A DNA stretch of 64,000 nucleotides from a virus. The notes under the pieces are model-generated. The model worked only from the letters and a program-made list of their open reading frames with translations, did no database searches and was not told the origin of the DNA. Below are positions 3 through 61,685 of this stretch, one piece after another. The stretch is taken from positions 1-64,000 of IMG/VR virus record IMGVR_UViG_3300021378_000014. One strand, given 5' to 3'. Both the position numbers and the translations under genes were made by a program. Numbering within the stretch: position 1 is the first letter of the stretch; every line of letters begins with the position of its first letter.

Positions 3-3000
3 GTAGGTATTGATTCTGTAATGCAAAAGCTAATAGAAAAAGCTAGAGCCGCTGAACGTATTTATAATAAATATAACAACCGAGTAATTAAACCTGGTGT
101 TAGTGAAGAAGTTGTAGCAAGGCAACGAGCTTTGCAGATGGATGCTGAATTTAATTTAGATACACAACGTGATGAATTAACTAAAGCTGAATTAGAAGTT
201 GAACGTTTAATGCCAAATATGAGCATTACTACTTCTTTCTTTAGAGAAAGTGTTCAATTAAAAGCTAATCGTGAAGCTAAAGCTATTTTAGAAACAGCAC
301 TTACAAATAAAAATACTACAGATAAAGCTAAAGCTTCTATTGTTAAGCAAATTCAATTGCTTAAAGAAAATAATGAAGCATTAGCGGCTAGTTTAGATGC
401 TGTAAATCCTGGATTAGATAAAAGAGCTTTAACTGGCTCTGAACCTGATCAAGAATTATTAGATACAGCTACTGATGTAGTATTACGTAAAGCCATTATT
501 GCTCAAATTAGTGATAACTTACTTGATCTTTCTTTACCTAAGACTACCGAAGAAATTGCTACTTCTCTAGCTGAAGAAAAGGAACGTAAAACTAAAGAAG
601 CTTATACTCAATTTACTACAGAAGTAAATAATCCAACTACAACTTCTGCTAAGTTAGAATCTATGCTTAGCACTTTAGAATCTACTGATCCTAATTTTGA
701 TAAAAAATCTAAAGTTCTTACAAAACGGATTAAAGATACTAAACGTCAAGAAGCTATAGCTGAAACAGCAAAACGCAAGGCAGAAATTGCTGAAGCTGAA
801 AGATTAAAAAGTACAGAAGCTGCACCTGTAGCTGTAACTCCGGTTGCGGCAACAACTGCCCCAGCAATAACAGTAACTTCTGTAACTACTACAGAACCTG
901 AAGTTGAATCTGCAACTCAAAGTGAAGAGATAACTACTGAAAAACTAGTTGAAGAGCTTGGTACATTAAAAGCAAAACAAGTTCTTGAAGCTATTGAGAA
1001 TGTAAAGTATATGCTCGGAGAAAGTGGAGCTTTACTAGTTACTGAACTACGTAAACTAGCTAAAAAAGCTAAGAAATCTCTTGGTGATCTTGCGGCAGCT
1101 TATCTTAATCAAGAAGCAGATAAACTTGATCCGTCTATTGTTAAAACAGAACTTGTACCTGAAACTGTAGAAGATAGTACAGAAATTAATGCAGTAAAAG
1201 ATAATACAAATGAATTTACCGGAACAGAAACTTTACCAGAAACTTCAGAACCTGTTGTATCAACTATTGTTGAAGAGGTTCAAGGAAAAGAAACAGAAAC
1301 AGAAATTACCAAAGAGGAAGAGGTAGCAACTAAACCTACTCGTACAAGAGTATATAGTGTTATAGCTACCCCTTTTATTGGGGAGTTTAGTGCTAAAAAA
1401 ATTGAAGGATTAATTGGCACTAAGCTATTTGAAGGTGATGTTATTAATACAAGTTATGATAATGGACGTAATAACGGAACTCGTACTTTAATTACTTTTA
1501 TCGTTAAAGATGGTAAGTTAACAGCTAAAGGTTTACCTGCATTTAGTGTATCTAAATCTCGTCGTAGATTTGGTGCATTAGTTGTAAATGAAGATTTACG
1601 TCCAGCGCCTGTAGTTGAAGCACCGACAGTGACTGAAATTCCTGCAGTACCTGAACCTGCGCCTATTGTAGTTGAAGAAACTATTGTAATTGATAACACA
1701 AACTACGGTTCTGCTAATATTTTTGTTCAACCTCTGGCAAAAGGTTTAATTCAAAAAGGAGATACGTACAAAGCTAGTGAAGAAGCAGTAACTGTTATTG
1801 ATGTAGTAAAAGCTATGCAAGTTGGTGATGATATTACATTAGAAGTTGATACTAGTAATGAATATCATAAAGATAATGAAGATAACGCAGCTATAGTAAT
1901 TAAAAAAGATGGAATTGTAATCGGTATGTTAAATATTATTGATTCAATTCAAACTGCTATTAAAAATACGGAGGATCCGGCTGCTGCTAAAATCTTTATG
2001 ACTAACTTAGAAGCTACTCGTAAACTTAGATCAGTAGTTTGGAATAATGGTAATCCAGTTGTAGTATCTACTAAAGTAACTAAACTTACTAGTGGTACTT
2101 TAATTAAAGGTGAAACTTTCATTCCAGTACAAGATAGTTTAGTTGGAGAGTTTGAATTGTATTATGCTGATGATGGTGTAGCTGAAAATGTAGTAATTGA
2201 TCAGCTTATCTCTATTACTGGGAAAGATACTTATGTTAGAACAGGAAACAAAGATTTTCATAATTCAGATTTACAATATACACCTGGTGTATTTTATGCT
2301 TTAATTGCTGGATTAAATGATAATACTGGTTTTAATTCTAAAGAAGAAGTTCAAAATAAAGTAGTAGTAAGATTACGTGTAGCTAATTTAGGTACAAAAG
2401 AACAAAATACTTTATACGGTACTATTGGTAAAGTAATTGAACTAATGCGATCTGGTGAAATTGATTTCAATAAAAATGAAAATTTAAATCAGTTACGTAC
2501 AGCTATTGGTGATATTACAGCTTTTAATAAAAATAATGATAATACTGATGGTACAGTTACTAAGCCATATTTCAAAATACATAAACAGTATATTGAATTT
2601 TTAGCTTACGGTGATACTAAACTGGTACGTATTTATTTTAATAAAGGTAAAGCTAGTTCTACTGTTGTAGTTCATCCTTTTGATAGCAATGCTGGTGATT
2701 ATAATACCTGGGCCGGATTCCGAAAAATGGTAGGCGCAAAGGAATTAGAGGCAAATTTTGACCAGCAAACCGGCGAGAAAGCGCGTGAGATTGTTTTAGC
2801 GGCTTTAGCTACTAAACAGCACCAAATATCTTTGGCAAAGATTAAAAGCGGCCAGATCAGCGCAAAACAATTAATGGACGAAAAGAAGTTGCTGGCTGAT
2901 GTTGGAAAAGTAGTTGATTCTAAAGGTAAAGGTGTTACTAATTTTGTACCTAAAGAGAATAGAGAAAAAACTAGTAACTTAGTTATTAGTGTTGCTTCTG

Positions 3001-40098: not shown

Positions 40099-40539
40099 CT
40101 AATCTTCATCTTCATCATTAGAATCAGTTTCAGCTTCACCAGAATCAATATGATTTTCATGAAAAAACACTTGATTTTCGTGTTCATCATAGATACGTAT
40201 TGCTATTCTATTATCACCTTTAAGAAGAACCTGTAGTTCAATCTTTTCCTCAAAATATATAAATAAAGCTTTTCTTTTAAACTCTAGCCCTTTGAATATA
40301 GCATTATTAATAAGTTCGTAAATAGTTTCATTACGAACAATAATGGTTTGCGTATATTTCCAAAGTTCACGAGCACTAATACTAAAGTAACAATCCACGT
40401 ATTGCTTATTGTCACGTATCTTATTCTTATACTTAGTCGGTATACTAGTGATAGTTTTACTAGTTGTTTTTACAGCAGCTGTATTTTTAATTAACGGCGC
40501 TATGCTATTTGCTTTAGCGATAAGATTTTGTAAATCCAT
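40099..40539 (-). CDS. Hypothetical protein with acidic tail
   Basis: 146-aa ORF. Confidence 0.7.
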   Translation of the reverse strand: MDLQNLIAKANSIAPLIKNTAAVKTTSKTITSIPTKYKNKIRDNKQYVDCYFSISARELWKYTQTIIVRNETIYELINNAIFKGLEFKRKALFIYFEEKIELQVLLKGDNRIAIRIYDEHENQVFFHENHIDSGEAETDSNDEDED

Positions 40540-40615
40540 CGAGGTATATTTCTATTACTGGGAAAGATTAAGGCAGTCCTAACTTCTTTCCCAGTAATAA
40601 GAAAGGGCTGCTTAG

Positions 40616-40879
40616 TTATAACTTGATTACTGCGTTAGCAGTAGTTTTAAGCTTATACGTAGCTTTATTACGTTGTACAGTAAGCGGTTTACCAAATCTA
40701 GCTCTTTGCCATTGTTTAGGCGTAAGCTTAAAATGCATTATACCACTAGTTTTAAGTTCTTTATCTTCAAAGTGTTCGTATTGAGCTACCACATCTATGG
40801 CAGATGTAACTGGTTTTAAATAATTATAATTACTTCTTTCCAACTGCACCCCGCCCGTGGCATAATGCGCATTCTTCAT
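40616..40879 (-). CDS. Hypothetical protein
   Basis: Probable start MKNAHY, which minimises overlap with the Zn-finger gene. Confidence 0.55.
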   Translation of the reverse strand: MKNAHYATGGVQLERSNYNYLKPVTSAIDVVAQYEHFEDKELKTSGIMHFKLTPKQWQRARFGKPLTVQRNKATYKLKTTANAVIKL

Positions 40880-41021
40880 GTCTTCCTCTATTTCCACAAC
40901 AACTACATTTACCTCCAACAATTTTAGCCTTACAGCATTTACTGACTTGACCTCTACCGCCACAAATAAAACAAGTTGTTGCTTTGATTATTTCAATTAA
41001 ATTAGTTATAAGTTTAATCAT
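40830..41021 (-). CDS. Small Zn-finger protein with DnaJ-type CxxCxGxG repeats
   Basis: CFICGGRG, KCC, CSCC, CALCHGRG. Confidence 0.7.
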   Translation of the reverse strand: MIKLITNLIEIIKATTCFICGGRGQVSKCCKAKIVGGKCSCCGNRGRHEECALCHGRGAVGKK

Positions 41022-41127
41022 GGTTTATTGATTAATAATGCCGACTTCAACAATCAAGTCAAAGCCGGCATAAGTTTATTACTATCGGTCACCAATACTC
41101 ATACCAGTACTGGTAATGATGTCATAT

Positions 41128-41361
41128 TCACCCATGTTGTTTAGGTTTACGGAGTTTTTGCTTAAATTTAAACGTATCTCCTTCCTTGATTAATTTATTA
41201 AGATGTTCTTTTGCAGCTTCAGACGTACGAAAGCCATTTGCAGGTTGATTTGCTATATCAGCATTACTTACGTTTTGTTGAATAGCGAAAGAACTAGTAT
41301 TATTTTTCTTAATTACTTTAATGTAAAAAGGAATTGCAAATACACGCTTTTCGTTTTTCAT
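41128..41361 (-). CDS. Small basic hypothetical protein
   Basis: Stop/start overlap with the upstream ORF. Confidence 0.6.
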   Translation of the reverse strand: MKNEKRVFAIPFYIKVIKKNNTSSFAIQQNVSNADIANQPANGFRTSEAAKEHLNKLIKEGDTFKFKQKLRKPKQHG

Positions 41362-41681
41362 TATTTTGTAGTTTTAGCTGCAATTTCATGAGCATAGGCC
41401 ATTCTCCACATATTACCACCCATACAAATCATTTTATCTAATTCATATACATTTTGATGTGGTTCGCGGGCAGTTTCAGCTCCAACACGAGTTTGATATG
41501 TATCAATCAACGTCCCTTGACGATCAGTTACAAAACGAAACACTCCAAATTCTTTACCAGTATATGGATTTTTACCGGTAGCGTAATTTTTTGTTTTTCC
41601 ATTGTTATTACGTCCAAGTTTACGATTAGCTGCTTTTACACCGCTGGACTTAGTACTACTTCTTTTCTTAATTGCCATCAT
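41361..41681 (-). CDS. Small basic hypothetical protein
   Basis: K/R-rich N-terminus. Confidence 0.65.
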   Translation of the reverse strand: MMAIKKRSSTKSSGVKAANRKLGRNNNGKTKNYATGKNPYTGKEFGVFRFVTDRQGTLIDTYQTRVGAETAREPHQNVYELDKMICMGGNMWRMAYAHEIAAKTTK

Positions 41682-41730
41682 GTAATTGTTTGTGTTATAA
41701 CTTATAGGTTATAACGGATTAATAAATTAG

Positions 41731-41899
41731 TGGGAATAGTGGGATTCGAACCCTGATATATATTTATTACAACTAGTATTATGTAATATCAATCATTTTA
41801 CTTAGTTAACCAACAGCGTAACAATTTCAGTTACTAGTACTGCTAAAATTAACACTAGAGTTTGTATCTAGTCTAACTCTCCAACGTTAGCGTATTCCC
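41731..41899 (-). ncRNA. tRNA-like RNA with ~100-nt structured insert in the variable region
   Basis: Acceptor GGGAATA/TATTCCC+A; D arm CTAAC-GTTGGAGA-GTTAG; anticodon arm ACTAGA-TACAAAC-TCTAGT; T arm GGG-TTCGAAT-CCC; insert 41754-41853 folds into two hairpins. Confidence 0.65.
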
Positions 41900-41933
41900 C
41901 CCAGTACCGTAGGTACAGAACTTTAATTAATAG

Positions 41934-42017
41934 TACCGGGAAAGGGACTTGAACCCTCAATTCCAGATGGAAACAGGATTTTAAGTCCTGCGTGTCTACC
42001 AATTTCACCACCCCGGT
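41934..42017 (-). tRNA. trnL: tRNA-Leu(UAA)
   Basis: ACCGGGGTGGTGAAATTGGTAGACACGCAGGACTTAAAATCCTG...GAGGGTTCAAGTCCCTTTCCCGGTA; long variable arm; CCA not encoded. Confidence 0.93.
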
Positions 42018-42044
42018 ATGTAATGCAGTAATCAATACATTTAT

Positions 42045-42212
42045 TTATCGTATAATCAATTTGTGTAACTGAAATATAATAATAAACAAAAGTATAGCTT
42101 CAATGTTTACATCTAGCACTGTAGATACAATAGCTATTATACCGAATATAATTACTAGTACTAATAGTGTAAACATTAGTTTCTCTATTTGCAGTTTGTT
42201 TATTTTAATCAT
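42045..42212 (-). CDS. Small two-TM membrane protein (55 aa, absent from the ORF track)
   Basis: MIKINKLQIEKLMFTLLVLVIIFGIIAIVSTVLDVNIEAILLFIIIFQLHKLIIR. Confidence 0.55.
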   Translation of the reverse strand: MIKINKLQIEKLMFTLLVLVIIFGIIAIVSTVLDVNIEAILLFIIIFQLHKLIIR

Positions 42213-42357
42213 AACGAGTATACAGGTGAATGAATAAAAAGTCTATTTGGAATTGGTATCCATCATAGGTGATAGATAGTAAACTACGTTCATTAAAGCT
42301 GGTAATAAACGTAGCTATTGCAATTCCATAACGAAAACTAAGTAGTTCAAATTTCAT
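42205..42357 (-). CDS. Small hypothetical protein (50 aa, absent from the ORF track)
   Basis: MKFELLSFRYG...LYTRYD; its stop overlaps the next start. Confidence 0.5.
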   Translation of the reverse strand: MKFELLSFRYGIAIATFITSFNERSLLSITYDGYQFQIDFLFIHLYTRYD

Positions 42358-42436
42358 TATCTTGCGTTTATAGATATAGGAGCAGTTATCTTATATTGAT
42401 AAGCTCTATACCGGATTGTATATAAAGTTTTCAGTC

Positions 42437-42619
42437 TCATAATCGTACGTTTAACAATAATAATAATCCTGTGAATATTCCAATGACAACTATAATTAGC
42501 TGTAAGCCTAATATTATATCATTGTCATAGGTATATTTACATACTGGATATATACATATAATACATAGAATAATAAATGCTGTATATAGTATATTTAATC
42601 GTTGTTTAGTTATTTTCAT
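42437..42619 (-). CDS. Small two-TM membrane protein
   Basis: Two hydrophobic segments. Confidence 0.6.
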   Translation of the reverse strand: MKITKQRLNILYTAFIILCIICIYPVCKYTYDNDIILGLQLIIVVIGIFTGLLLLLNVRL

Positions 42620-42757
42620 CTAGTAATTGTTTTGTTTTGTTTGTCATTGTATTATGTTTTTCGTCAGTGCTACAATATTATAGCAGACTACCACCCGTAA
42701 AGGTACAAGAACTTTAACTTGTTTATTGGTAGTTTCGATCAGTTTTTTATGTTAAAA

Positions 42758-42982
42758 TTATTCAGGCAAAAGTATCGTGATATTTACACTTTCTTCCGTA
42801 ATTGTAACATCAATGTTGTATTTAGTGAATAATTGTGAGTTCTGTAGTTGTAATCCTAGTATGAATAACAAATCAGTTGCAAAATTATTTGTTACTATCA
42901 TATTGGAATTGAACATATCACGTATTACAATTACTAGTCGGGCTTCAATAGTACCTTTAGGGTATGCATGGGTTATTTTCAT
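42758..42982 (-). CDS. Hypothetical protein
   Basis: Probable start MKITHAYP after an A-rich leader. Confidence 0.55.
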   Translation of the reverse strand: MKITHAYPKGTIEARLVIVIRDMFNSNMIVTNNFATDLLFILGLQLQNSQLFTKYNIDVTITEESVNITILLPE

Positions 42983-43200
42983 GGTATTAGTTTTAGTAGT
43001 TATTTTATGTCTTGAGGTTTGCGATGTATTGCGGAACATTGAAGTTACGCTTTAATAATAAGAGGGTGATGGGTAATAGTATGATTATGGTTAATAAAAA
43101 GGGAATTAATATTAGGGATTTGGGTATGGTTAAGGGGAAGAGTACGGAGTACAGGAACACTATCACCTATCCTAATCTCCGTACTCTTACCAATTCACTT

Positions 43201-59084: not shown

Positions 59085-60077
59085 ATGTATCCTGTTGAAT
59101 TGTTTGTAGCACGTGATGTACTTTACGGAGCTAAGCAAGGAGGTGGTACTATTGCAAATTTAGGTGAAATTGATGATCTCGTCGTTGGCGGTATTGCTCT
59201 TTTTGCTGATAATGGTAGTATCATTTTAGCAGCTACTACAGCTGCAAGTCTTAAAAATGTTAGTCAATTTCGTATTGCGATTAACGACGGTAACGGTGTT
59301 CGTTTAAGTGCGCCTATTGATCGTGAAGCGTATAACGCTACTAAGCAAGGTTACGTTGCTGCTGTAAAACAAGTAGTAGTTGTAGGAGAAAGTTCTACCA
59401 CCAACGGTGATATGAACTACCCTACCACTTTGGTACCTGGTACAGTTGCTGAACTAGTTATCACTGATACTACAACTGCTGATTATCGTGTTAATTTGAC
59501 TAAACGATATTACGCTGAAGTTACTGCTGCTAGTACAGCAGCTACGTTGAATGCCGCTTTAATTGCAGCTATTAACGCAGATCCAACTTCAATTGTAGTA
59601 GCTAGTGCTCAAGGTACTGTGGGTATTATCTTAACAGCTAAGTTGTTTGCAACTACGTTTGTTGTGGGTGTTACTGAAATTATCGAATCTGCTACTATTT
59701 GGAAAGATGGAACTAACGGTTCTGTTATTTTCAATCCTGGTCGTGGTAATGTTTCTCAGCTACTTGAACTTCAAACTGAAAGTGATATTCTTTTAGGTAA
59801 ATCTAATTTTGCTGGTCAACAACAATATTGGTGGAGTCGTCAAGATGAAGTTGCTGCAAGTGGTATTACTGGATTTGAAATGTTTATTTTCCAAGATGCT
59901 AGCGAGGCTCGTAAAGCAGGTAAAGTAATGAATGTAGCTACGAAAGATACAGTTCTTGCTTATCCTACGGGAACCACTGCAACTACTGGTATTGAAGATG
60001 TTTTAACTGGTATTCTTGCTGTTGTACTGAAAGGAGCCGAATCTAGTTCTGGTTCTTCTACTGATTCTAATAATTAA
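59085..60077 (+). CDS. Virion structural protein (auxiliary capsid-type)
   Basis: A/T/G/V-rich, 330 aa, with codon usage like the MCP. Confidence 0.65.
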   Translation: MYPVELFVARDVLYGAKQGGGTIANLGEIDDLVVGGIALFADNGSIILAATTAASLKNVSQFRIAINDGNGVRLSAPIDREAYNATKQGYVAAVKQVVVVGESSTTNGDMNYPTTLVPGTVAELVITDTTTADYRVNLTKRYYAEVTAASTAATLNAALIAAINADPTSIVVASAQGTVGIILTAKLFATTFVVGVTEIIESATIWKDGTNGSVIFNPGRGNVSQLLELQTESDILLGKSNFAGQQQYWWSRQDEVAASGITGFEMFIFQDASEARKAGKVMNVATKDTVLAYPTGTTATTGIEDVLTGILAVVLKGAESSSGSSTDSNN

Positions 60078-60098
60078 TAATCTTATAACCTCATTAAT

Positions 60099-61685
60099 AT
60101 GAAATATCGTTTCAAAATATATGAGGTTAGTAAAGACGGGGGGACTGGCCTAGTATGTGGACAGGCCCCCTTTCTTATTACTAATTTCTCAACATTAACT
60201 ATAGCACTAGCTGTTAATGGTACTGAAATACATAATGGTGTATTTGCAGTAGGAGGTGCAAATCCTTCTGTAGTTGTTACAACTACTATAGTTGGGAGTA
60301 TTACAGTTACTTTAACTGTTCAAGATACTGGTCAATTATTAATAGAAATTCCATCTACTCAATACGATTTACCTAATAATCTTTATATTAAAGTTGCTAA
60401 AGTTGGAGGTAGTGCTAATACGTACGAAAACAATTTAATTGTATACGGATATGATTTAGGTAATGATGCAACAGTAACAAATGATTTAGGTTTACCTGTT
60501 ACTAATAATCCAGATATGGATATTGTACTTGTAGACGAAACAGCAACTGATACATTTACTAAATTTGTAGGTTATAATATACCATTAACAAGTAATGTAG
60601 CTTTAGTAGAACTTGCAAGTGGTGATGGGCTTACTACTTATCATAAAGCATTAACAGCAGAAGTTGTCGGTACTGGTTTAGTTACAACTGCAAGTATTCA
60701 AAATTTAGATTATTATTCTAAAAGCTATCGTGCTGATAGTAATGTCAGTTGTGTTTCTAACAATTTACCATTACGTTTGTGGAATTATTGTCCTCATATT
60801 AATATGAGCATTATTAATGGTAGATATGATGAAGTGATGGTTCTTTCTAGAGTAACTGGGCCTGCTTTACGCACTTCTTTAGATTTTATGGATATAGCAC
60901 GACTTAGTATTGATGATGTAGTTACAGTTCCTTTTATCTCTCCACGTATTGTTTACACATTACGTAATAGATTAGGAGAAGTTGTAACTGCTACTACGTT
61001 TGCTTTAAACTTTAGTACAATTTTTACAGCTGGTTCTGATAATACATTTTACGATTGGTTGTTACCTACTCTTGATATTACTCAGAATTATACAATAACA
61101 GCTGAAATTATTAGTGATTGTCAATTCAATTGTGTTTCTACTCTTACAATTCCTTTTTGTTATACTGAAGATATTACTCACGTAGAGTGTAATAGTTACG
61201 TACTTACAAACAATATTCCAGTAACGGTTACAGTTAGTATAAACAAATGGAATGGTACAACGTTTGTTGAAGATGCAAATTATATTTTAGTAGCAGATAG
61301 TAGTAGAGCTATTGAATTAACTGATGGTGTTTATCAAATTAGATTTACACGAGGTGAAGAATTTTACAATAGAATAGTATTAGCTGATTGTGGTATTCGT
61401 ACCTGCATCATGACTCTTATTCAAGATTTTGTATGTAAAGTTGCTACTATTGATTGTGATTGTGAAAGCACTTGCTCTTGTACTAATGTTCAATATGTAA
61501 ATGATAAAGATCTGTTTGATGTTAATATGATTAATATTCAGTATATTCAATATTTGAATTTAGTTAATCATCTTCTTAATCTTAATCCTATCTTTACTAC
61601 ACTTAATAACGAAACTGAAGCTGCTATTATTCAAATTGATAAACTAATACAAGCTTTTAGCGTGTATTGTGAAACTTGTAAATAA
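60099..61685 (+). CDS. Putative virion protein, beta-rich with Cys-rich C-terminus
   Basis: 528 aa; CDCESTCSC and terminal CETCK. Confidence 0.65.
   Translation: MKYRFKIYEVSKDGGTGLVCGQAPFLITNFSTLTIALAVNGTEIHNGVFAVGGANPSVVVTTTIVGSITVTLTVQDTGQLLIEIPSTQYDLPNNLYIKVAKVGGSANTYENNLIVYGYDLGNDATVTNDLGLPVTNNPDMDIVLVDETATDTFTKFVGYNIPLTSNVALVELASGDGLTTYHKALTAEVVGTGLVTTASIQNLDYYSKSYRADSNVSCVSNNLPLRLWNYCPHINMSIINGRYDEVMVLSRVTGPALRTSLDFMDIARLSIDDVVTVPFISPRIVYTLRNRLGEVVTATTFALNFSTIFTAGSDNTFYDWLLPTLDITQNYTITAEIISDCQFNCVSTLTIPFCYTEDITHVECNSYVLTNNIPVTVTVSINKWNGTTFVEDANYILVADSSRAIELTDGVYQIRFTRGEEFYNRIVLADCGIRTCIMTLIQDFVCKVATIDCDCESTCSCTNVQYVNDKDLFDVNMINIQYIQYLNLVNHLLNLNPIFTTLNNETEAAIIQIDKLIQAFSVYCETCK
60139..60176 (+). 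terminator. Intragenic terminator/attenuator
   Basis: GGGGGACTGGCC...GGACAGGCCCCC-TTTCTT, 40 nt into the 528-aa gene. Confidence 0.6.

What the first reader, a model, noticed from the sequence alone, without database searches (positions are those of the whole stretch)
41731..41899. tRNA-like RNA with a 100-nt, two-hairpin expansion, next to tRNA-Leu
Seen on the - strand: perfect 7-bp acceptor stem, 5-bp D stem with a GG-containing loop, 6-bp anticodon stem with the 7-nt loop UACAAAC (central CAA, but A instead of the invariant U33), and a canonical UUCGAAU T loop on only 3 bp of stem. It has the same ACUA 3' end as the neighbouring tRNA-Leu. The variable region is replaced by 100 nt that fold into hairpin 1 (GUUAA/UUAAC, AGCAG/CUGUU, GUAAC/GUUAC) and hairpin 2 (UGAU/AUCA, UAUUACA/UGUAAUA). 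It is too short for tmRNA, which also lacks a D stem, and too short for a group I intron. Inference: a tRNA mimic or scaffold, for example a decoy for anticodon nucleases (PrrC/RloC/PARIS-type) or a ribosome/synthetase modulator, or a tRNA with a non-canonical intron. Intact stems argue against simple decay.
Basis: partly seen in the sequence, partly recalled or inferred. Interest (0 to 1): 0.8.

Follow-up and report, generated by a model that had tools for sequence, protein, structure and literature searches.

The report
Remodelled tyrosine tRNA in crAss-like phage
A freshwater crAss-like phage carries a copy of its host's tyrosine tRNA that keeps the tRNA shape, but its anticodon has been rewritten and about 85 extra bases added, so it probably no longer reads codons and does some other, still unknown job.

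Summary
On the - strand, 41899..41731 folds as a cloverleaf carrying about 100 extra bases. ARAGORN and Rfam miss it, and chance does not produce it.

The new result is its origin. A covariance model built from the element alone hits only chromosomal tRNA-Tyr(GUA) genes of Bacteroidota (58 bits, E 9e-12 for the best). So it derives from a class II tyrosine tRNA, not from a leucine or lysine tRNA.

Against the closest host gene:
- All 24 unpaired core positions outside 32-35 are identical.
- Stems differ only by compensated pairs.
- Positions 32-35 are all changed (CUGU to UACA), which removes U33 and the GUA anticodon.
- The variable arm keeps its closing GUU/AAC pairs but is 49 nt long.
- A 46-nt AU-rich insert splits the T stem. 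Read this way the stem has 5 bp, not 3.

This focused remodelling argues against plain decay and against decoding. I saw no splicing and found no homologue outside the species, and the function is untested. My best guess is a processed, non-decoding tRNA-Tyr mimic acting as a decoy or binder.

The scan has noted other oversized tRNA-like families in crAss-like and freshwater phages. This sequence matches none of them.

The parts
41731..41899 (-). Whole 169-nt tRNA-Tyr-derived tRNA-like gene (G1 at 41899, discriminator A73 at 41731)
   Evidence: Sequence. Minimum-energy fold. Model R1 hits host tRNA-Tyr genes.
41893..41899 (-). Acceptor stem, 5' strand GGGAAUA. It pairs with 41732-41738 (UAUUCCC).
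   Evidence: 7 of 7 Watson-Crick pairs. Host G301 has GGGAGUA/UAUUCCC.
41873..41890 (-). D arm: CUAA / loop CGUUGGAGAG / UUAG
   Evidence: The D loop matches host tRNA-Tyr of G301 at 10 of 10 positions, including C14. Pair 11-24 is changed on both sides.
41854..41872 (-). Anticodon arm. The loop UACAAAC lies at 41860-41866. Positions 32-35 are rewritten from host CUGU to UACA.
   Evidence: The stem is kept through a compensated pair.
41805..41853 (-). Elongated variable arm (hairpin 1, 49 nt, 18 bp including 4 G-U pairs)
   Evidence: Best 3% of 49-nt windows of the genome by folding energy. It has the same closing GUU...AAC as the host variable arm GUUU-GAAA-AAAC.
41800..41804 (-). UAA-GU: the ancestral linker plus T-stem positions 49-50. 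GU can pair with AC at 41739-41740.
   Evidence: The model aligns it with host UGA-GU. Manual comparison. The nearest-neighbour energy model disfavours these two pairs by 3.6 kcal/mol.
41754..41799 (-).
   Evidence: Absent from all eight host tRNA-Tyr genes looked at. Its stability is at the genome background level. It is not repeated elsewhere in the genome.
41741..41753 (-). Inner T arm: GGG-UUCGAAU-CCC
   Evidence: The T loop is identical to the host. Pair 51-63 is changed on both sides, A-U to G-C.
41933..42017 (-). Canonical tRNA-Leu(UAA), 33 nt upstream; the only standard tRNA of the 81-kb genome
   Evidence: ARAGORN and Rfam, 55.7 bits. UUA makes up 48% of Leu codons.
41694..41715 (-). 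GUUAUAAC-N6-GUUAUAAC hairpin between the element and the next ORF. RNA-library contigs of three studies end at or just beside it.
   Evidence: Sequence. Contig ends at 41692-41722, while a DNA contig runs through. This is only a weak hint.
41361..41681 (-). Downstream 106-aa ORF of unknown function, probably co-transcribed
   Evidence: no family found. Covered by RNA-library contigs.

Best explanation
The element is a phage-borne, remodelled copy of a Bacteroidota class II tyrosine tRNA. It is kept under selection for tRNA shape but no longer built to read codons.

**Shown**
- Its acceptor, D, anticodon and T helices and its D and T loops are those of host tRNA-Tyr.
- The stems were maintained by compensating changes.
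- Positions 32-35 were rewritten, so U33 and the GUA anticodon are lost.
- The variable arm was lengthened to 49 nt.
- 46 nt were inserted in the T stem at 50/51.

**Inferred**
- It is co-transcribed with tRNA-Leu(UAA) and the downstream ORFs.
- Like a tRNA, it is released by RNase P at G1 and by a 3' endonuclease after A73, and receives CCA from the host enzyme. Host tRNA-Tyr genes also lack an encoded CCA.
- It persists as a stable RNA of about 170 nt.
- The tRNA-Tyr body then acts as a handle for whatever binds tRNA-Tyr. The rewritten loop and the T-stem insert, which sits where EF-Tu reads the T stem, keep it out of decoding.
- Most likely it is a competitor or decoy for a tRNA-Tyr-binding factor, such as a defence tRNase or TyrRS. 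Its cutting may also free the downstream mRNA.
For: **Origin**
- Model R1, built from the element alone, hits one gene per genome. ARAGORN calls tRNA-Tyr(GUA) in the four it was run on; the other three carry the same GUA loop:
  - three Chitinophagales genomes at 43-46 bits;
  - G301 at 58 bits, E 9e-12;
  - three further genomes of G301's family.
- G301's gene sits among ordinary chromosomal genes at about 41% GC.

**Pattern of change against G301**
- 0 of 24 unpaired core positions outside 32-35 differ, while 4 of 4 differ at 32-35. By hand count that is about 5e-5 (1 in 20,475).
- Against L239, 5 of 7 anticodon-loop positions differ but only 2 of 21 other unpaired positions (Fisher p = 0.004).

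**Stems**
- 100% of cells are paired.
- 10 of 20 pairs changed on both sides.
- 0 of 500 shuffles reach this, and slid controls give 35-51% paired.

**Variable arm and T stem**
- The closing pairs of the variable arm and the linker-plus-GU are retained.

**Demand for a leucine tRNA**
- UUG, the codon a CAA anticodon would read, is only 6.8% of Leu codons.

**Presence in samples**
- The stretch, or part of it, is held by runs of 18 studies.
- The element is identical in an independent contig.
- An RNA-library contig spans the whole unspliced element, 41722-41938.
Against: - No homologue with the expansions was found outside this phage species, so hairpin 1 and the 46-nt insert have no covariation support.
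- The compensating stem changes may date from a time when the gene was still a working phage tRNA-Tyr.
- Hairpin 2 and the insert look like ordinary AU-rich spacer DNA.
- The two outer T-stem pairs are disfavoured by the nearest-neighbour energy model.
- Processing, CCA addition, stability and any binding partner are untested.
- The RNA-library contig is at depth 4 and could be DNA carry-over.
- In the one studied case, phage tRNA-Tyr rescue from retron-Eco7 needed an intact anticodon (PMC11555353). This element lacks one.
Confidence: 0.55

Rival explanations
1. It is a dead tRNA-Tyr gene. A once-functional phage tRNA-Tyr was knocked out by insertions and a loop mutation. It now does nothing, or survives only as an RNase P / RNase Z cutting mark that separates tRNA-Leu from the downstream mRNA.
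For: - The extra sequence is AU-rich (24% GC), and its second half folds no better than the genome background.
- There is no conservation beyond the species.
- RNA-library contigs of three studies end 9-39 nt downstream of the element, while a DNA contig runs on. This would fit a cutting-mark role.
Against: - Decay long enough to change all four of positions 32-35 should also have hit the other 24 unpaired core positions, yet none differs from G301.
- No stem pair is broken except through the insert itself.
- The anticodon stem is not needed for RNase P or RNase Z cutting, yet it is kept through a compensated pair.
Confidence: 0.25
2. It is a working decoder: a giant-armed tRNA with anticodon CAA that reads UUG, charged with Leu or Tyr.
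For: - A 7-nt loop with CAA at positions 34-36, A37, A73 and a class II body.
- ARAGORN calls tRNA-Leu(CAA) once most of the insert is deleted in silico.
Against: - A33 replaces the near-universal U33 (that U33 is near-universal is from general tRNA knowledge).
- The insert sits at T-stem positions 50/51, where EF-Tu contacts the tRNA (general knowledge).
- UUG is rare in this phage, at 5.7 per 1000 codons.
- The anticodon identity bases for TyrRS are gone.
- Rfam's tRNA model does not score it even at E up to 10.
Confidence: 0.05
3. It is a tRNA gene with one or two unusual introns that are spliced out to give a normal tRNA.
For: The extra sequence lies inside an otherwise complete cloverleaf. 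Removing positions 101-146 would restore a contiguous 5-bp T stem.
Against: - No joint was seen in three RNA libraries, and the one contig across the element is unspliced.
- It is too short for group I or group II introns, and Rfam finds no ribozyme.
- Even after removal, the anticodon loop would stay non-canonical.
- Bacteria have no bulge-helix-bulge splicing (general knowledge).
Confidence: 0.03
4. It is a diverged member of one of the oversized tRNA-like families that this scan has already noted in crAss-like and freshwater phages. These are the 'giant-armed Asp-type' RNAs and the 'anticodon-less Leu-chassis with cargo' RNAs.
For: - The habitat, phage group and general design are the same.
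- Look-alikes of the Leu-chassis type lie upstream of the helicase in other phages.
Against: - Model R2, built from seven Leu-chassis look-alikes, scores the element at only 17.5 bits (E 0.059), with the D arm and outer T stem mismatched.
- R1 hits none of those look-alikes beyond the shared acceptor and T arm.
- There is no GUC anticodon, U1-A72 or G73.
- The body is demonstrably tRNA-Tyr.
- The scan's index holds no sequence look-alike.
Confidence: 0.05

Closest known systems
Chromosomal class II tRNA-Tyr(GUA) of Bacteroidota (G301/L244 1501-1586; G417, G447, G461; Chitinophagales L239-L241)
   Same: - Acceptor stem (one G.U became A-U).
- C8 and G9.
- D loop CGUUGGAGAG (10 of 10).
- A26.
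- Anticodon stem.
- Positions 36-38.
- Closing pairs of the variable arm.
- T loop.
- A73.
- No encoded CCA, and even the ACUA 3' context.
   Different: - Positions 32-35 are UACA instead of CUGU, so there is no U33 and no GUA.
- The variable arm is 49 nt, not about 12.
- There is a 46-nt insert at 50/51 in the T stem.
- tRNA finders do not recognise it.
Phage T4 RNAC and RNAD, small stable RNAs from the tRNA region (PMC3014915)
   Same: Extra small RNA gene sitting with phage tRNA genes; role unknown.
   Different: There is no sequence relation. The T4 RNAs are known as transcripts, while this one is only predicted. Here the ancestry (tRNA-Tyr) and the exact remodelling steps can be read.
Oversized tRNA-like RNAs of uncultured phages with a Leu-type chassis
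   Same: A tRNA acceptor, D arm and T arm framing a long foreign middle. Found in freshwater phages, several of them upstream of the same helicase gene.
   Different: - Those have U8 and a Leu-type D arm, and lack a 7-nt anticodon loop.
- This element keeps a complete anticodon arm, has a Tyr-type body and carries its extra RNA in the variable arm and T stem.
- R2 score is only 17.5 bits.
Phage tRNA-Tyr that rescues T5-like phages from retron-Eco7 PtuAB (PMC11555353)
   Same: A phage-encoded tRNA-Tyr-type gene. It shows that tRNA-Tyr is a target of anti-phage defence.
   Different: Rescue there needs a decoding tRNA with an intact anticodon. This element has lost its anticodon, so it could only act as a competitor, not as a replacement.

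Membership tests
Functional bacterial tRNA-Tyr(GUA), class II | 7-bp acceptor stem with A73 | tested here: met
Functional bacterial tRNA-Tyr(GUA), class II | D arm and D loop with G18 G19; T loop UUCGAAU | tested here: met
   Both loops are identical to G301's tRNA-Tyr.
Functional bacterial tRNA-Tyr(GUA), class II | Anticodon loop with U33 and GUA at positions 34-36 | tested here: not met
   The loop is UACAAAC; the host has CUGUAAC.
Functional bacterial tRNA-Tyr(GUA), class II | Contiguous 5-bp T stem and a short (about 12-16 nt) variable region | tested here: not met
   A 46-nt insert lies between positions 50 and 51, and the variable arm is 49 nt.
Functional bacterial tRNA-Tyr(GUA), class II | Recognised by the Rfam RF00005 model and by ARAGORN | tested here: not met
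Leu-chassis 'cargo' tRNA-like RNAs of phages (uncatalogued; model R2) | U8, a Leu-type D arm (GAAUUGGUAGA loop) and a contiguous 5-bp T stem | tested here: not met
   R2 gives 17.5 bits, E 0.059, with the D arm and outer T stem marked as mismatched.
Giant-armed Asp-type tRNA-like RNAs of Bacteroidota and phages (earlier notes of this scan only) | GUC anticodon loop, U1-A72 and a Leu-like class II D arm, as described in the notes | tested here: not met
   By inspection this element has CAA, G1-C72 and a Tyr-type D arm. No family sequence was available for a profile test.
tmRNA | G3.U70, a tag reading frame and pseudoknots; called by ARAGORN -m | tested here: not met
   It has G3-C70, and ARAGORN -m finds nothing.
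Intron-containing tRNA | A spliced form in RNA, or a recognisable self-splicing intron | tested here: inconclusive
   No joint was seen and one unspliced contig covers the element, but these are contigs only, at depth about 4. Rfam finds no intron family.
Stable tRNA-like small RNAs of phage tRNA clusters (T4 RNAC/RNAD type) | A discrete, processed, stable transcript during infection | not testable with these tools
   Only assembled contigs of metatranscriptomes were available.

The most novel reading that the evidence does not exclude
The element is an 'anti-tRNA-Tyr'.
- Positions 32-35 of its loop (UACA) are the exact complement of U33-G34-U35-A36 of the host tRNA-Tyr. In effect it shows a tyrosine codon plus a purine on a tRNA-Tyr body.
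- It could kiss the anticodon loop of host tRNA-Tyr, shielding or sequestering it.
- Alternatively it could sit, uncleavable, in a tRNA-Tyr-directed defence nuclease.
- The long variable arm and the T-stem insert would keep it off EF-Tu and the ribosome.

By my hand estimate, UACA turns up in a random 7-nt loop of this base composition about 2.5% of the time. The idea has not been tested in any other way.
Probability: 0.15. Interest if true: 0.85.

Novelty: new variant of a known kind. Interest (0 to 1): 0.55.

Why it matters
Phage tRNA genes are usually read as codon supplements or as replacements for tRNAs destroyed by host defence. Here the steps that turned a host tRNA into something else can be read base by base:
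- the body and elbow were kept;
- the four bases that make the U-turn and the first two anticodon positions were replaced;
- two expansions were added on one face of the molecule.

That makes this a clean test case for what tRNA-shaped non-decoders do in phage infection. The partner to look for is obvious: anything that binds tRNA-Tyr. tRNA-Tyr is already known to be a target of anti-phage defence (PMC11555353).

The element also shows that standard tRNA finders and Rfam miss such genes. A covariance model built from a single sequence was enough to recover the ancestor.

Tried and rejected
The 99%-identical sister contigs seen in protein clusters could therefore not be fetched.

**Homologue searches that found nothing useful**
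- Exact scans of viral contigs with the 3' half, the 5' half and a degenerate Tyr-type 5' half gave either only an unrelated jumbo phage sharing the acceptor and T arm, or nothing.
- The 3' half has no exact match in 185,579 species genomes.
- Neighbour-protein searches found no relative.
- The one metagenome contig recovered (L083) is identical across the element. It lies in a near-identical block, so it carries no information on constraint.
- R1 found no long form in 50 viral contigs or in about 450 Bacteroidota genomes.
- blastn against 50,697 phage records matched only the tRNA-Leu.

**Readings rejected**
- MITE or repeat origin of the insert: it has no second copy in the genome.
- tmRNA.
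- An Rfam ribozyme or intron.
- 9/3 or 8/4 'allo-tRNA' geometry (PMC5389517): positions 8-9 cannot extend the acceptor stem.

**Context searches with no hit**
- No CCA-adding enzyme or TyrRS gene was found in the phage. The Rnl1 search was uninformative because its control rang nowhere.
- The neighbouring ORFs have no Pfam or PHROG family.

**RNA libraries**
- Two of the three RNA libraries have no contig over the element. Contig holes prove nothing.
- No joints were seen.

**Weak leads set aside**
- A single variant (41806 T>G, depth 4) would break pair U48-A94. It may be a sequencing error.
- A 5-bp match between the anticodon loop and 128-132 (UUGUA) is within chance expectation.

Full report
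**1. What is there**

The window is bases 1-64000 of an 81,416-bp viral record that is 98% complete.
- It is a distant crAss-like phage. The Pfam crAss capsid family matches at 1e-52.
- The capsid protein is only about 33% identical to named crAss phages.
- GC content is 32%.
- The stretch, or part of it, is held by runs from 18 studies, mostly freshwater, with some seawater and estuary metagenomes.

On the - strand, 41899..41731 reads as follows:
- GGGAAUA-CG-CUAAC-GUUGGAGA-GUUAG-A-CUAGA-UACAAAC-UCUAG-U
- then about 100 nt
- then GGG-UUCGAAU-CCC-AC-UAUUCCC-A, followed by CUA.

The unconstrained fold gives exactly this cloverleaf: -41.6 kcal/mol, z = -3.1.

ARAGORN and Rfam see only the neighbouring tRNA-Leu(UAA) at 42017..41933. 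That is the sole standard tRNA of the genome.

I wrote a scan for this layout. It requires a 7-bp acceptor stem, a T loop, a D arm with GG, and a 5-bp/7-nt anticodon hairpin, in 100-400 nt. It finds only this element in about 1.5 Mb of related phage DNA, and nothing in shuffled DNA.

**2. How good are the two 'hairpins'?**

I compared them with all same-length windows of this genome.
- The whole element is in the best 5%.
- Hairpin 1 (49 nt) is in the best 3%.
- Hairpin 2 is at the 46th percentile.
- The 100-nt block as a whole is at the 30th percentile.

The insert is not repeated elsewhere in the genome, so it is not a miniature transposon.

**3. Relatives of the phage**

- The nearest helicase relatives are 99% identical (the same species); the next is at most 36%.
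- One JGI contig (L083) has the element 100% identical. However, the surrounding 1.8 kb differs at only four bases, so this says nothing about constraint.
- None of 79 helicase-anchored viral loci holds an element with this full layout, and none of 50 whole viral contigs holds a homologue.

**4. Expression**

I laid three metatranscriptome runs and one DNA run on the stretch, as assembled contigs only.
- One RNA-library contig (217 nt, depth 4) spans 41722-41938. That covers the whole unspliced element plus the spacer.
- No joint was reported.
- RNA-library contigs of three studies end at 41692-41722, at or just beside an 8-bp hairpin (GUUAUAAC-N6-GUUAUAAC, 41694-41715). A DNA contig of similar depth runs through.
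- This is a weak hint of an RNA end 9-39 nt downstream of the element. It is compatible with tRNA-type 3' cutting that frees the downstream mRNA.
- No Bacteroidota-type -7 box lies between tRNA-Leu, the element and the next ORF. One lies about 70 nt upstream of tRNA-Leu. I infer that they are co-transcribed.

**5. The key result: ancestry**

I built covariance model R1 from the element alone. An exact 33-mer of the phage tRNA-Leu led me to Bacteroidota genomes, mostly Chitinophagaceae and relatives.

| Genomes searched with R1 | Matches |
|---|---|
| 151 Chitinophagales | one strong gene (43-46 bits) in each of three genomes, plus two weak matches (E 0.1-0.9) judged spurious |
| 151 sampled across the phylum | one gene, in G301, at 58 bits (E 9e-12) |
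| 151 of G301's family | G301 again, plus three further genomes |

- ARAGORN calls tRNA-Tyr(GUA) for G301 and the three Chitinophagales genes. The three further family genes carry the same CUGUAA anticodon loop.
- All of these host genes are 82-86 nt long and canonical.
- G301's gene sits among ordinary chromosomal genes at about 41% GC.

Host G301 and the phage element, segment by segment:

| Segment | Host G301 | Phage element |
|---|---|---|
| Acceptor, 5' strand | GGGAGUA | GGGAAUA |
| Positions 8-9 | CG | CG |
| D stem, 5' strand | CCAA | CUAA |
| D loop | CGUUGGAGAG | CGUUGGAGAG |
| D stem, 3' strand | UUGG | UUAG |
| Position 26 | A | A |
| Anticodon stem, 5' strand | CCAGA | CUAGA |
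| Anticodon loop | CUGUAAC | UACAAAC |
| Anticodon stem, 3' strand | UCUGG | UCUAG |
| Position 44 | U | U |
| Variable arm | GUUU-GAAA-AAAC | GUUAAU ... GUUAAC (49 nt) |
| Linker | UUG | UAA |
| T stem, 5' strand | GCAGG | GU-[46 nt]-GGG |
| T loop | UUCGAAU | UUCGAAU |
| T stem, 3' strand | CCUGC | CCCAC |
| Acceptor, 3' strand | UAUUCCC | UAUUCCC |
| Discriminator and trailer | A-cua | A-cua |

Several features that I first took for decay turn out to be ancestral to this tRNA-Tyr type: C8, C14 and the odd D loop.

**6. Pattern of change**

- *Against G301.* All 24 unpaired core positions outside 32-35 are identical: positions 8, 9, the D loop, 26, 36-38, the T loop and 73. All four of positions 32-35 differ. 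By hand count that is 1 in 20,475, about 5e-5.
- *Against L239.* Five of 7 anticodon-loop positions differ, against 2 of 21 other unpaired positions (Fisher p = 0.004).
- *Stems, on the five-sequence alignment.* All 100 cells pair, and 10 of 20 pairs show a change on both sides. No shuffle out of 500 reaches this. Sliding the partner by one to three columns gives 35-51% paired.

Two caveats apply. There are only five sequences, and the alignment was fitted to the model.

The compensated changes of the phage copy, in standard tRNA numbering:
- against G301: 11-24 and 28-42 (both C-G to U-A), 51-63 (A-U to G-C), and G5.U68 to A-U;
- against the Chitinophagales genes: also pairs 4-69, 5-68, 7-66 and 13-22.

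**7. The T stem and variable arm re-read**

- The model aligns host GU (positions 49-50) with G99-U100 of the element. It treats positions 101-146 as an insertion.
- G99-C161 and U100-A160 would then restore a 5-bp T stem split by a 46-nt AU-rich insert.
- Relative to G301 (C50-G64), the pair U100-A160 is itself a compensated change.
- The nearest-neighbour model disfavours these two isolated pairs by 3.6 kcal/mol. This part is inference from homology.
- Hairpin 1 starts and ends with the same GUU...AAC that closes the host's variable arm. It is therefore a grown variable arm, not foreign DNA.

**8. What it is not**

- *A leucine decoder.* U33 is replaced by A, and UUG is only 6.8% of Leu codons.
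- *An intron-bearing tRNA* (section 4). In addition, no Rfam intron or ribozyme is found.
- *tmRNA*.
- *A member of the Leu-chassis 'cargo' RNAs.* I found those in other phages (L004, L018, L026, L037, L117, L118, L002). A model built from them scores the element at only 17.5 bits, E 0.059, with the D arm mismatched.
- *A member of the 'giant-armed Asp-type' family named in earlier notes of this scan*, judged by its described features. The scan's sequence index holds no look-alike.

**9. Mechanism**

*Shown:* a host-type tRNA-Tyr body is preserved, with a focused rewrite of positions 32-35 and two expansions.

*Inferred:*
- The RNA is cut out like a tRNA and receives CCA from the host. Host tRNA-Tyr genes also lack an encoded CCA, and the phage has no CCA-adding enzyme of its own.
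- It cannot decode. There is no U-turn base and no Tyr anticodon, and the insert sits where EF-Tu reads the T stem (general knowledge).
- It therefore acts through its tRNA-Tyr shape, most plausibly as a competitor for something that binds tRNA-Tyr.

tRNA-Tyr is a known defence target. Retron-Eco7 PtuAB depletes it, and T5-like phages answer with their own tRNA-Tyr, but that rescue needs an intact anticodon (PMC11555353). A decoy role here would therefore be a different mechanism.

One curiosity is that UACA at positions 32-35 is the exact complement of the host's U33-A36. By hand estimate this arises by chance about 2.5% of the time. I list it as the bold reading.

**10. Verdict**

The element is real, it derives from tRNA-Tyr, and it was remodelled non-randomly. 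Its function is unknown, and the added parts have no comparative support. Phage tRNA-like small RNAs are a known kind (T4 RNAC and RNAD, roles unknown, PMC3014915), and this is a new variant with an unusually readable history.

Noticed in passing
L041 6277-6660, L044 3983-4370, L045 6248-6630: In three related crAss-like contigs, tRNA-Leu(UAA) is followed directly by a conserved, GC-rich, ORF-free stretch of about 380 nt (it begins AAGTGTCCAAATGATGGAC). An Rfam gathering scan of L041 reports only tRNAs there. It may be an uncatalogued structured RNA.
   Followed up: partly
L004 3356-3512; L037 4952-5111; L018 521-649; L026 863-974; L117 2349-2494; L118 938-1039: Oversized (102-160 nt) tRNA-like genes. 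Each has a 7-bp acceptor stem, a Leu-type D arm, a 5-bp T arm and an unrelated middle part. Several lie upstream of the same helicase gene in unrelated phages. Most are not called by ARAGORN.
   Followed up: partly
L002 6376-6512 and L003 3173-3329 (350-kb phage IMGVR_UViG_3300048854_000081): A 137-nt tRNA-like gene shares its acceptor stem and T arm exactly with a normal tRNA(CUA) elsewhere in the same jumbo phage. Two adjacent CUA-anticodon tRNAs suggest that this phage reads TAG as a sense codon.
   Followed up: no
window 41694-41715: Two copies of the palindrome GTTATAAC, 6 nt apart, lie just upstream of the 106-aa ORF. This is the only such pair in the genome. It could be an 8-bp RNA hairpin or a dimer-binding site. 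RNA-library contigs end here.
   Followed up: partly
window 40100-41405 versus 41405-43194: Against sister contig L083, a block with about 120 differences abuts a block with 4 differences in 1.8 kb. This looks like a recombination mosaic between strains, with its boundary inside the 106-aa ORF.
   Followed up: no
window 41933-42017: A 33-nt core of the phage tRNA-Leu(UAA) has exact matches in more than 120 genomes. Most are Chitinophagaceae, Cytophagales and Saprospiraceae. Together with the tRNA-Tyr match to G301, this points to a freshwater Bacteroidota host.
   Followed up: partly
window 41900-41932: The 33-nt spacer between tRNA-Leu and the element holds a small hairpin, GUACC-UAC-GGUAC, ending 3 nt before G1 of the element.
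   Followed up: no
window 59265-60277: With introns allowed, ARAGORN reports a 'tRNA-Ile with a 921-nt intron' across coding sequence. This is almost certainly a false call.
   Followed up: no
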